A stretch of 64,000 nucleotides of DNA from a virus (lineage: Duplodnaviria; Caudoviricetes): the IMG/VR virus record IMGVR_UViG_3300025121_000013. One strand, written 5' to 3'. The notes beneath the pieces were generated by a model that worked only from the letters and a program-made list of their open reading frames with translations, did not search any database and was not told the DNA's origin. The position numbers were made by a program, and so were the translations under genes. Shown piece by piece: positions 5,093 to 5,183 of this stretch (its first letter is position 1; each line of letters begins with the position of its first letter).

Positions 5093-5183
5093 TGGCGCCC
5101 GGATCCTGATTCGAACAGGAAACTCATTTTTCACCTTGGATCGCTCTAGATGAAAATCGCTTTGCCTTTTAAGCTATCCGGGT
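5093..5183 (-). tRNA. aberrant tRNA-like gene with the anticodon loop replaced by a 15-nt-longer arm
   Basis: Acceptor ACCCGGA/TCCGGGC-G-CCA, D stem GCTT/AAGC, T arm TCCTG TTCGAAT CAGGA; 91 nt. Confidence 0.75.

What the first reader, a model, noticed from the sequence alone, without database searches (positions are those of the whole stretch)
5093..5183. tRNA body whose anticodon loop is replaced by a GNRA-capped extension
The acceptor (A1-C72 mismatch, G73, encoded CCA), D arm, 5-nt variable loop and T arm are tRNA-like. The anticodon arm is 15 nt longer: UUUUCAUCU-A-GA[GCGA]UC-CA-AGGUGAAAA. It begins 5 nt after the tmRNA CCA, so it is probably co-transcribed. An anticodon-less tRNA cannot decode and has no loop for anticodon nucleases to cut, so it may be a decoy or a processing signal for tmRNA (inference).
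Basis: partly seen in the sequence, partly recalled or inferred. Interest (0 to 1): 0.7.

Follow-up and report, generated by a model that had tools for sequence, protein, structure and literature searches.

The report
Phage tRNA with interrupted anticodon loop
A giant groundwater phage encodes, right behind its ribosome-rescue RNA (tmRNA), a well-formed tRNA with 12 extra bases in its anticodon loop; cutting them out would give a tRNA that reads the stop codon UAG, but nothing shows this happens, so it may equally be a non-decoding tRNA look-alike or a dead gene.

Summary
On the minus strand, 5 nt after a phage tmRNA (Rfam 88.9 bits), lies a 91-nt tRNA-shaped gene. It scores 37.7 bits on the Rfam tRNA model when scanned alone. 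It has A1.C72, G73, an encoded CCA and an anticodon arm 12-15 nt too long.

It is not simply anticodon-less. Removing 12 nt at the canonical intron site 37/38 leaves the loop A-U-CUA-G-U (amber suppressor). A cut shifted by 2 nt gives CUG (Gln). G37-U38 otherwise occurs only in this phage's tRNA-Gln.

My controls weaken the intron reading:
- ARAGORN's intron mode finds an "intron" in 98-99% of random loops placed in this body (canonical site about 5%, CUA 1-2%).
- 4-12% of random inserts fold as well.
- There is no bulge-helix-bulge motif, and no EndA, RtcB or RNA ligase in the held 139 kb (45% of the genome).
- TAG is an ordinary stop (23 of 206 genes).
- No relative of this RNA turned up anywhere I searched, and no RNA data exist.

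Ranking: insert-interrupted suppressor tRNA needing protein excision 0.36; non-decoding tRNA mimic or processing handle 0.32; recently killed gene 0.27. The closest precedent is the "enigmatic" tRNA introns of Lak megaphages. The scan has noted insert-bearing phage tRNAs on other DNA before.

The parts
5189..5600 (-). Phage tmRNA, upstream partner in the same transcription unit
   Evidence: Rfam RF00023, 88.9 bits, E 3.5e-33, full-length model match. ARAGORN did not call it.
5652..5679 (-). Sigma-70-like promoter candidate about 50 nt upstream of the tmRNA
   Evidence: TTGAAA, 16-nt spacer, TAAAAT; 10 of 12 matches. This is a consensus match only, and the number of such sites in the region equals the shuffle expectation.
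5184..5188 (-). 5-nt spacer UUUUG between the tmRNA CCA and A1 of the tRNA
   Evidence: Read directly from the sequence.
5093..5183 (-). 91-nt tRNA-shaped gene with an over-long anticodon arm, A1.C72, G73 and an encoded CCA
   Evidence: Rfam tRNA 37.7 bits, E 4e-7, when scanned alone. ARAGORN -i calls tRNA(cta) with a 12-nt intron. Fold.
5146..5183 (-). 5' part: acceptor 5' strand, D arm, anticodon-stem 5' strand, loop bases A-U-C-U-A-G
5147..5149 (-). CUA triplet (candidate anticodon). In the precursor, C and U are paired with G and A of the insert
   Evidence: ARAGORN -i; minimum-free-energy fold.
5134..5145 (-). 12-nt insert AGCGAUCCAAGG at 37/38 (equivalently GAGCGAUCCAAG at 36/37). Removing AGAGCGAUCCAA (5136-5147) instead would give anticodon CUG
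   Evidence: The 12-mer is not repeated in the genome beyond chance.
5093..5133 (-). 3' part: U38, anticodon-stem 3' strand, variable region, T arm, acceptor 3' strand, G73, CCA
5051..5058 (-). Trailer octamer GGAUCGCU, a perfect complement of the first 8 nt of the insert
   Evidence: Inverted repeat I7. An 8-nt complement somewhere in the 705-nt transcript is expected for 4-5% of random inserts.
4963..5048 (-). Strong Y-shaped hairpin that ends the RNA unit. A 12-13-bp closing stem encloses a 9-bp perfect hairpin with a CUA loop and a second short hairpin, followed by UUUU. Probably a terminator or structured trailer
   Evidence: Fold z-score -5.4; inverted repeats I1 and I6.
4172..4945 (-). 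257-aa gene directly downstream. Its family is linked to tmRNA and to tRNA islands in big phages
   Evidence: phrog_4243. Homologs sit 0.01-1.4 kb upstream of a tmRNA in 19 related loci. They sit next to RtcB in L001, L004 and L005.

Best explanation
It is a tRNA gene of the amber-suppressor type (anticodon CUA, with a glutamine-like loop) whose anticodon loop is interrupted by a 12-nt insert at the canonical intron position 37/38.

How it would work:
1. It is transcribed together with the phage tmRNA.
2. RNase P cutting at A1, plus 3' trimming to the encoded CCA, would release a 91-nt tRNA-shaped RNA.
3. In this RNA the anticodon is locked in a 9-bp helix with the insert, so as made it cannot decode.
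4. It becomes a working 79-nt UAG-reading tRNA (or, with cuts 2 nt further 5', a tRNA-Gln CUG) only if proteins cut out the 12 nt and rejoin the halves. That would need an endonuclease leaving cyclic-phosphate and hydroxyl ends and an RtcB-type ligase.

Shown: the gene, its tRNA body, the insert and its position, and the co-location with tmRNA. Inferred: co-transcription, processing, excision and the amino acid carried.
For: 1. The tRNA body is real: Rfam 37.7 bits. All 20 stem pairs outside 1.72 are intact, and U8, A14, G18, G19, the UUCGAAU T-loop and G53-C61 are present.
2. Deleting 12 contiguous nt at 37/38 gives the loop A-U-CUA-G-U with U33 and a purine at 37. The excised forms fold as cloverleaves and are called by default ARAGORN as tRNA(cta) or tRNA-Gln(ctg).
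3. Among this phage's 13 other tRNAs, only tRNA-Gln(UUG), with loop UUUUGGU, has G37-U38. From textbook knowledge of E. coli GlnRS identity, G73 and an unpaired 1.72 favour Gln charging, and amber suppressors tend to be charged with Gln (stated in 10.1101/2021.08.26.457843).
4. The 3' end of the insert pairs with the anticodon, as introns do in archaeal and eukaryal pre-tRNAs.
5. Precedent: Lak megaphages carry conserved introns of unexplained type, which Rfam did not classify, at 37/38 in tRNA-Tyr, Phe, Gly and Thr (PMC6784885).
6. In related phages' tRNA islands the homolog of the gene next to this tRNA sits beside RtcB.
7. Phage suppressor tRNAs also occur in standard-code relatives of recoded phages.
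Against: 1. ARAGORN's intron mode returns an 'intron' for 98-99% of random 19-nt loops put into this body. The canonical site comes up in about 5% and CUA in 1.4-2%, so the parse is weak evidence and was noticed after the fact.
2. The insert hairpin is not significant.
3. There is no bulge-helix-bulge motif: the 3' cut site lies inside a continuous helix.
4. No EndA, RtcB, Rnl1 or Rnl2-type ligase and no clear polynucleotide kinase were found in the held 139 kb.
5. TAG is an ordinary stop (23 of 206 crude genes), extensions after it are no longer than after other stops, and the long ones have a ribosome-binding site and ATG after the TAG.
6. The excised tRNA would have 2 nt between the D and anticodon stems and a 7-nt variable region, so its geometry is slightly off.
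7. Isotype profiles built from 773 related-phage tRNAs do not place the body with Gln.
8. No protein-dependent tRNA splicing has been shown in bacteria or phages, to my knowledge.
Confidence: 0.36

Rival explanations
1. It is a non-decoding tRNA look-alike; this is the first reader's class of idea. The acceptor, T and D 'top half' is what matters. It gives RNase P a cutting site 5 nt behind the tmRNA CCA, so it helps set the tmRNA 3' end. The released 91-nt RNA with its rod-like arm may also act as a mimic or decoy for tRNA-binding enzymes. The insert is never removed, and the CUA is a coincidence.
For: - As encoded there is no 7-nt loop.
- No splicing motif or enzymes were found.
- A suppressor has no visible job in this genome.
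- The intron parse is expected by chance.
- The same phage has a second tRNA-shaped gene (52606-52692 minus strand, Rfam 37.4 bits) with perfect acceptor, D and T stems but no drawable anticodon arm, 5 nt behind tRNA-Leu.
- Five related big phages share a tRNA-shaped gene with a 19-21-nt anticodon 'loop'. Its sequence is conserved and its stems covary, and it yields no canonical anticodon loop in most members.
- A 1.72 mismatch is expected to weaken EF-Tu binding, as in initiator tRNA (textbook knowledge).
- An unchecked note from an earlier follow-up in this scan (e1-5409233) reports a phage tRNA mimic whose long arm, which it calls a rod, is kept in RNA libraries.
Against: - A tRNA directly behind tmRNA is not conserved in 16 related tmRNA loci.
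- Any ordinary tRNA would serve as well as a processing handle; 4-6-nt spacings are normal in this phage's tRNA arrays.
- Three coincidences would have to be accepted: a clean U33-CUA-R37 loop at the canonical site, the Gln-like G37-U38, and G73 with an open 1.72.
- This particular RNA has no relatives, so selection on its arm is unshown.
Confidence: 0.32
2. It is a recently inactivated tRNA gene. A working suppressor or Gln tRNA took a 12-nt insertion in its anticodon loop and a mismatch at 1.72. The insertion possibly arose by template switching that copied the nearby trailer octamer in inverted orientation. The RNA is still made and processed but does nothing, and the gene is on its way to decay.
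For: - Deleting one contiguous block restores a canonical loop, as expected for a single insertion event.
- The first 8 nt of the insert are the exact reverse complement of a site 79 nt away. That is the signature expected of a template-switch mutation.
- The acceptor has a second defect, A1.C72.
- The phage does not need UAG read-through.
- The insert fold is within the chance range.
- The gene is an orphan with no conserved relatives.
- Another tRNA-derived gene with a ruined anticodon arm lies in the same window.
Against: - All other stems and the conserved tertiary bases are intact.
- The insert falls at the one site used by tRNA introns, about 5% under a random model.
- The octamer complement is itself only p about 0.04-0.05.
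- The sequence is identical in contigs from several groundwater samples, so it is not a sporadic variant. That also fits a fixed neutral lesion.
Confidence: 0.27

Closest known systems
'Enigmatic' tRNA introns of Lak megaphages (Devoto et al. 2019, PMC6784885)
   Same: Both are huge-phage tRNA genes that bacterial tRNA finders fail to call. Both carry an insert one base after the anticodon that Rfam did not classify, found only when intron-aware settings are used. No excision mechanism is known for either.
   Different: The one Lak intron I read (tRNA-Tyr of A1) is 93 nt. The Lak introns lie in Tyr, Phe, Gly and Thr tRNAs, are identical across cohorts, and have insert-free alleles. Here the insert is 12 nt, the tRNA would be an amber suppressor, the phage is standard-coded, and no second genome carries it.
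Archaeal and eukaryal protein-spliced tRNA introns (bulge-helix-bulge, EndA plus RtcB)
   Same: The position is 37/38, the anticodon is paired with the intron, the size is within the archaeal range, and RtcB is the natural sealing enzyme.
   Different: There is no bulge-helix-bulge: the 3' junction lies inside a continuous helix. There is no EndA in the held sequence. The host is presumably bacterial.
Suppressor tRNA(CUA) of TAG-recoded phages (code 15: crAss-like, Lak and others; 10.1101/2021.08.26.457843)
   Same: It is a phage-encoded tRNA whose anticodon, after excision, reads UAG. The genome has low GC content and TAG is its rarest stop.
   Different: Known suppressors are intact, and most sit in genomes with in-frame TAG. 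Here the gene is interrupted and no in-frame TAG use is seen in 139 kb.
tRNA-like processing or mimic RNAs: mascRNA behind MALAT1, phage T4 stable RNAs C and D in the tRNA cluster (from my own knowledge; T4 also named in scan note e1-5409233)
   Same: A tRNA-shaped, non-decoding RNA lies directly 3' of a functional RNA, so that RNase P cutting would define the upstream RNA's 3' end. It sits within a tRNA gene cluster.
   Different: Those RNAs are conserved in their lineages. This one has a full tRNA elbow, an encoded CCA and a recoverable anticodon loop, and a tRNA behind tmRNA is not conserved in relatives.

Membership tests
tRNA (Rfam RF00005) | Covariance-model score at or above the gathering threshold (29 bits) | tested here: met
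   37.7 bits, E 4e-7, on 5096-5183 minus strand when scanned alone. Missed in the wider scans.
tRNA (decoding) | 7-nt anticodon loop closed by a 5-bp stem | tested here: not met
   There are 19 nt (ARAGORN register) or 22 nt (Rfam register) between the stem strands. Default ARAGORN makes no call.
Protein-spliced (BHB) tRNA intron | Insert at 37/38 leaving U33, a 3-nt anticodon and a purine at 37 | tested here: met
   ARAGORN -i. About 5% of random loops give the same site.
Protein-spliced (BHB) tRNA intron | Bulge-helix-bulge: two 3-nt bulges separated by 4 bp at the two junctions | tested here: not met
   The fold has a 9-bp continuous helix across the 3' junction, a 1-nt and a 2-nt bulge, and a 2-bp cap. 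No alternative pairing of loop positions 32-35 with the insert gives 4 bp (by inspection).
Protein-spliced (BHB) tRNA intron | Splicing endonuclease (PF01974) and RtcB (PF01139) available | tested here: inconclusive
   Neither is found in the 139-kb record. The record is only 45% complete and the host is unknown.
Group I intron in tRNA | Self-splicing core of about 200 nt or more with P3-P9 elements | tested here: not met
   The insert is 12 nt. No intron family appears in the Rfam scans.
Phage suppressor tRNA of a TAG-recoded genome (code 15) | In-frame TAG codons in phage genes | tested here: not met
   No long ORF has an internal TAG. 23 of 206 genes end in TAG with ordinary extensions. Only 139 kb of about 265 kb was examined.
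Lak-type 'enigmatic' phage tRNA intron | Same insert conserved in related genomes, with insert-free alleles | not testable with these tools
   No relative of this tRNA was found in 82 loci, in 50 whole big-phage records, or by pattern scans of viral, metagenome and genome collections.
tRNA-Pyl | CUA anticodon with a 5-nt D loop lacking GG, a 3-nt variable loop, one base between the acceptor and D stems, and an atypical T loop | tested here: not met
   The D loop is 8 nt with GG, both U8 and A9 are present, the variable region is 5-7 nt, and the T loop is the standard UUCGAAU. ARAGORN's 'Pyl' label only names the anticodon.

The most novel reading that the evidence does not exclude
The 12 nt are a protein-excised mini-intron. 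It keeps an amber-suppressor tRNA, made on the same transcript as the phage's tmRNA, switched off until a nuclease and an RtcB-type ligase remove it. That would be a splicing-gated UAG read-through switch in a phage that otherwise uses the standard code, and the first protein-dependent tRNA splicing in the bacterial world. The choice of cut register (CUA or CUG) might even set the meaning.
Probability: 0.12. Interest if true: 0.85.

Novelty: new variant of a known kind. Interest (0 to 1): 0.4.

Why it matters
If the insert is removed, bacteria-infecting viruses would have a protein-based tRNA splicing route. So far such a route is known only in archaea and eukaryotes. It would also give a way to time stop-codon read-through, which bears on how phages move towards recoded genetic codes.

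If the insert is not removed, the element joins a growing set of tRNA-shaped, non-decoding RNAs in giant phages whose roles are unknown.

Either way, standard tRNA finders miss such genes, so phage tRNA and suppressor inventories are under-counted. The calibration also shows that intron-mode tRNA calls cannot be taken at face value.

Tried and rejected
**RNA evidence**
- No RNA holder is listed among the public runs.
- The DNA contigs I laid on the region are the same phage at low depth. They show no variant in the part of the tRNA they cover and say nothing about splicing.

**Relatives of the RNA: none found**
- blastn against the phage collection.
- Exact-pattern scans of viral contigs, metagenome contigs and genome contigs.
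- A single-sequence covariance model over 82 loci and 50 whole big-phage records. The best hit was an ordinary tRNA-Ile at 46.5 bits.
- Single-protein scans with three neighbouring genes.

**Splicing or repair enzymes in the held 139 kb**
- EndA, RtcB, the Rnl2-type ligase and the T4 Rnl1-type ligase were absent. AAA_33 (polynucleotide kinase) gave only a 14.7-bit match.
- The record is 45% complete, so this does not show absence from the phage.

**TAG read-through**
- One candidate, 46481-46981 minus strand, lacks an obvious restart. It has no homologs, so it could not be tested.

**Isotype of the body**
- Profiles built from related-phage tRNAs gave about 2 bits for both Lys and Gln, which is uninformative.

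**Insert as a repeated or mobile motif**
- The only near copy (11 of 12) is within chance.

**Fold of the 257-aa neighbour**
- Foldseek against PDB and the Atlas search gave nothing.
- VIA-align listed only ATP-grasp ligases at the top, but at Z 5.5, below the level the tool calls meaningful.

**Rejected readings**
- Group I intron: the insert is too short.
- tRNA-Pyl: the body is an ordinary tRNA.
- Assembly artefact: identical contigs come from several samples.
- A weak second 'tRNA(cta)' call at about 4973-5052 appears only at an 80% ARAGORN threshold. It is the Y-shaped hairpin, not a tRNA.

Full report
**What is there**

The window is a 64-kb piece of an uncultured, AT-rich (about 30% GC) tailed phage from groundwater metagenomes.
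- The held record is an IMG/VR virus contig of 139,369 bp that CheckV rates 45% complete.
- A protein of the window is also on record on a 265,532-bp contig.
- PHROG matches to tail sheath and tail fibre confirm a phage.

On the minus strand Rfam finds a full-length tmRNA at 5189-5600 (88.9 bits). Five bases after its CCA begins the 91-nt element, 5183 to 5093.
- A1.C72, then six Watson-Crick acceptor pairs, G73 and an encoded CCA.
- U8 and A9.
- A 4-bp D stem with an 8-nt loop holding G18 and G19.
- A 5-bp T stem with the loop UUCGAAU.

Default ARAGORN and the wide Rfam scans miss it. Scanned on its own, it scores 37.7 bits on the Rfam tRNA model (gathering score 29, E 4e-7), with 21 nt where the model expects 6 loop positions. 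The tRNA body is therefore real, and the anticodon arm is 12 nt (ARAGORN register) or 15 nt (Rfam register) too long.

With introns allowed, ARAGORN reads the gene as tRNA(cta) with a 12-nt intron, AGCGAUCCAAGG, at the canonical position 37/38. This leaves the loop A-U-CUA-G-U.
- The same product results from cutting one base earlier.
- Cutting two bases earlier (removing AGAGCGAUCCAA) gives the loop A-U-CUG-G-U, a tRNA-Gln.
- Both in-silico products fold as cloverleaves and are called by default ARAGORN.
- Among the 13 other tRNAs of the held genome, only tRNA-Gln(UUG), with loop UUUUGGU, shares G37-U38.
- G73 with an open 1.72 pair is what E. coli GlnRS prefers (textbook knowledge).
- In the precursor, C34 and U35 pair with the 3' end of the insert, as in archaeal and eukaryal pre-tRNAs.

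So 'anticodon-less' is not the only reading. The element can be an amber suppressor, or a Gln tRNA, interrupted by a mini-insert.

**How much of this is chance**

I tested each attractive feature.
- **Intron parse.** I placed 1,000 permuted or random AT-rich 19-mers in the same body. ARAGORN -i reported a tRNA with an intron in 98-99% of cases. The canonical (39,12) call came up in about 5%, CUA in 1.4-2%, and any stop anticodon in 4-8%. An intron-mode call is therefore no evidence by itself.
- **Hairpin.** The GNRA-capped extension has a free energy of -7.5 kcal/mol. It is matched or beaten by 12% of permuted and 4% of random AT-rich inserts.
- **Trailer complement.** The first 8 nt of the insert are a perfect complement of a trailer octamer at 5051-5058. 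Such a match somewhere in the 705-nt transcript occurs for 4-5% of random inserts.
- **Isotype.** Profiles from 773 tRNAs of related phages do not place the body with Gln.

Each feature sits near p = 0.05 and was noticed after the fact. Together they are suggestive, not decisive.

**Tests of the intron reading**

- There is no bulge-helix-bulge: the 3' junction lies inside a continuous 9-bp helix.
- Twelve bases cannot be a group I intron, and Rfam finds none.
- The held 139 kb has no EndA, RtcB, or Rnl1- or Rnl2-type ligase, and only a 14.7-bit AAA_33 match. Half the genome and the host are unseen.
- The phage does not visibly need a suppressor. Long ORFs have no internal TAG. A crude gene set ends in TAA 127, TGA 56 and TAG 23 times, and in-frame extensions after TAG are no longer than after the other stops. 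The long extensions start with a ribosome-binding site and ATG. The one exception (46481-46981) has no homologs to test it with.
- After excision the tRNA would carry two bases between the D and anticodon stems and a 7-nt variable region. That is tolerable but not canonical.

**Context**

A promoter-like site lies about 50 nt upstream of the tmRNA and none lies in the 5-nt gap. Behind the tRNA come a 35-nt trailer, a very stable Y-shaped hairpin followed by UUUU (z = -5.4), and then a 257-aa gene.

Homologs of that gene (84 proteins; 79 IMG/VR loci) lie in the tRNA islands of big phages.
- In 19 loci an ARAGORN-detected tmRNA follows the homolog within 0.01-1.4 kb on the same strand.
- In three other contigs the homolog sits next to RtcB, a radical-SAM protein and a metallophosphoesterase.

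The element therefore sits inside a conserved tmRNA and RNA-repair neighbourhood. A tRNA directly behind tmRNA is not conserved, though: none of 16 related tmRNA loci has a convincing one. That argues against a dedicated tmRNA-processing role.

**Relatives of the RNA**

I found none. The searches were:
- blastn against the phage collection.
- Exact patterns in viral, metagenome and genome collections.
- A covariance model over 82 loci and 50 whole phage records.

Contigs from other groundwater samples are the same phage and are identical where they cover the element. No RNA run is listed.

**Things that favour a non-decoding RNA**

- The same window has a second tRNA-shaped gene (52606-52692, Rfam 37.4 bits). 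It has perfect acceptor, D and T stems but no drawable anticodon arm, and it lies 5 nt behind tRNA-Leu.
- Five related phages share an approximately 85-nt tRNA-shaped gene whose 5-bp anticodon stem encloses 19-21 nt. The loop sequence is conserved and the stems covary (6 of 20 pairs have double changes). Three of the five have a mismatched 1.72 pair. Most members give no canonical loop by any single deletion.

tRNA bodies with non-canonical anticodon arms are thus a recurring, and at least sometimes conserved, feature of these phages. They are not homologous to the present RNA.

**Known precedent**

Devoto et al. 2019 (PMC6784885) reported that Lak megaphage tRNAs carry conserved, 'enigmatic' introns one base after the anticodon. 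The example I read, the tRNA-Tyr intron of A1, is 93 nt. They were found only with eukaryote settings, have no known excision mechanism, and have insert-free alleles.

The Borges et al. preprint notes that many phage suppressor tRNAs probably escape detection because of non-canonical structure, and that suppressors occur in standard-code relatives of recoded phages. My literature searches found no paper that shows excision of such inserts. Earlier notes of this scan describe insert-bearing or rod-armed phage tRNAs on other genomes.

**Verdict**

I rank three readings close together.
- **Insert-interrupted suppressor tRNA, 0.36.** An amber-suppressor or Gln-type tRNA gene interrupted at 37/38, which works only if proteins excise the 12 nt.
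- **Non-decoding tRNA mimic or processing handle, 0.32.**
- **Recently killed tRNA gene, 0.27.** The inverted copy of the trailer octamer would fit a template-switch insertion.

It is a new variant of a known but unexplained kind, seen in one genome and without RNA evidence. Interest is moderate.

Noticed in passing
window 4172-4945 (-); loci L007-L085, L001, L004, L005: The 257-aa protein family (phrog_4243, no Pfam) is tightly linked to phage tmRNA genes. In 19 loci of big phages a tmRNA follows the homolog within 0.01-1.4 kb on the same strand. In others the homolog sits beside RtcB, radical-SAM and metallophosphoesterase genes. The AlphaFold model (pLDDT 79) has no clear fold match; the only hint is a weak ATP-grasp similarity (Z 5.5). 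It may be a phage tmRNA or RNA-repair partner protein.
   Followed up: partly
L067:8042-8126, L044:19033-19117, L033:19083-19168, L012:16261-16345, L079:19864-19951: A conserved family of approximately 85-nt tRNA-shaped genes in big phages that default ARAGORN misses. The acceptor, D and T arms are normal and covary. The 5-bp anticodon stem encloses 19-21 nt with a conserved mini-hairpin (GCAnnUGC or ACGuuugCGU) and UAU. Three members end in a Lys-like Y-CUU/UUU-AA, and three of the five have a G1.A72 mismatch.
   Followed up: partly
window 52606-52692 (-): A second tRNA-shaped gene with a defective anticodon arm, 5 nt behind tRNA-Leu(UAA). It has a Leu-like D arm, a discriminator A, a long variable arm and perfect acceptor and T stems, but only about 14 nt that cannot form an anticodon stem. 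Rfam tRNA gives 37.4 bits; ARAGORN calls '???(ggcc)'.
   Followed up: partly
window 4963-5048 (-): A very stable Y-shaped RNA between the tRNA and the next gene. A 12-13-bp closing stem encloses a perfect 9-bp hairpin whose loop shows CUA (the 7-nt version is UUCUAAA) and a second short hairpin. This is a second CUA-presenting hairpin within 150 nt of the first.
   Followed up: partly
window 5051-5058 and 5138-5145: A perfect 8-nt complement between the insert (AGCGAUCC) and the trailer (GGAUCGCU). It is either a long-range pairing or the trace of a template-switch insertion; p is about 0.04-0.05.
   Followed up: yes
window 46481-46981 (-): A 91-codon ORF ending in TAG continues in frame for 75 plausible-looking codons, with no in-frame ATG for 18 codons. 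It is the only read-through candidate in the held genome, and it has no homologs in the protein collection.
   Followed up: partly
window 33689-34798 (+): A TnpB/Cas12f-like gene (Pfam PF07282, E 7e-23), which points to an IS200/IS605-type element inside the phage.
   Followed up: no
window 5189-5600 (-): ARAGORN does not call this tmRNA although Rfam scores it at 88.9 bits. Its T loop reads GGCAGCU instead of the usual TTCRA type. ARAGORN does find the tmRNAs of the related phages.
   Followed up: no
G000:C1:1-1200 (outside the window): The first 1.2 kb or so of the 139-kb record is conspicuously GC-rich compared with the 29.5% GC genome. It could be a host flank, a chimeric end or a GC-rich gene.
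   Followed up: no
L014:11400-11520 and L033:11368-11500: Two related phages share a conserved motif (CTTAAAGAnAGTTTGCAAAC) just behind their tmRNA. L014 also has a weak tRNA-like T arm there.
   Followed up: no
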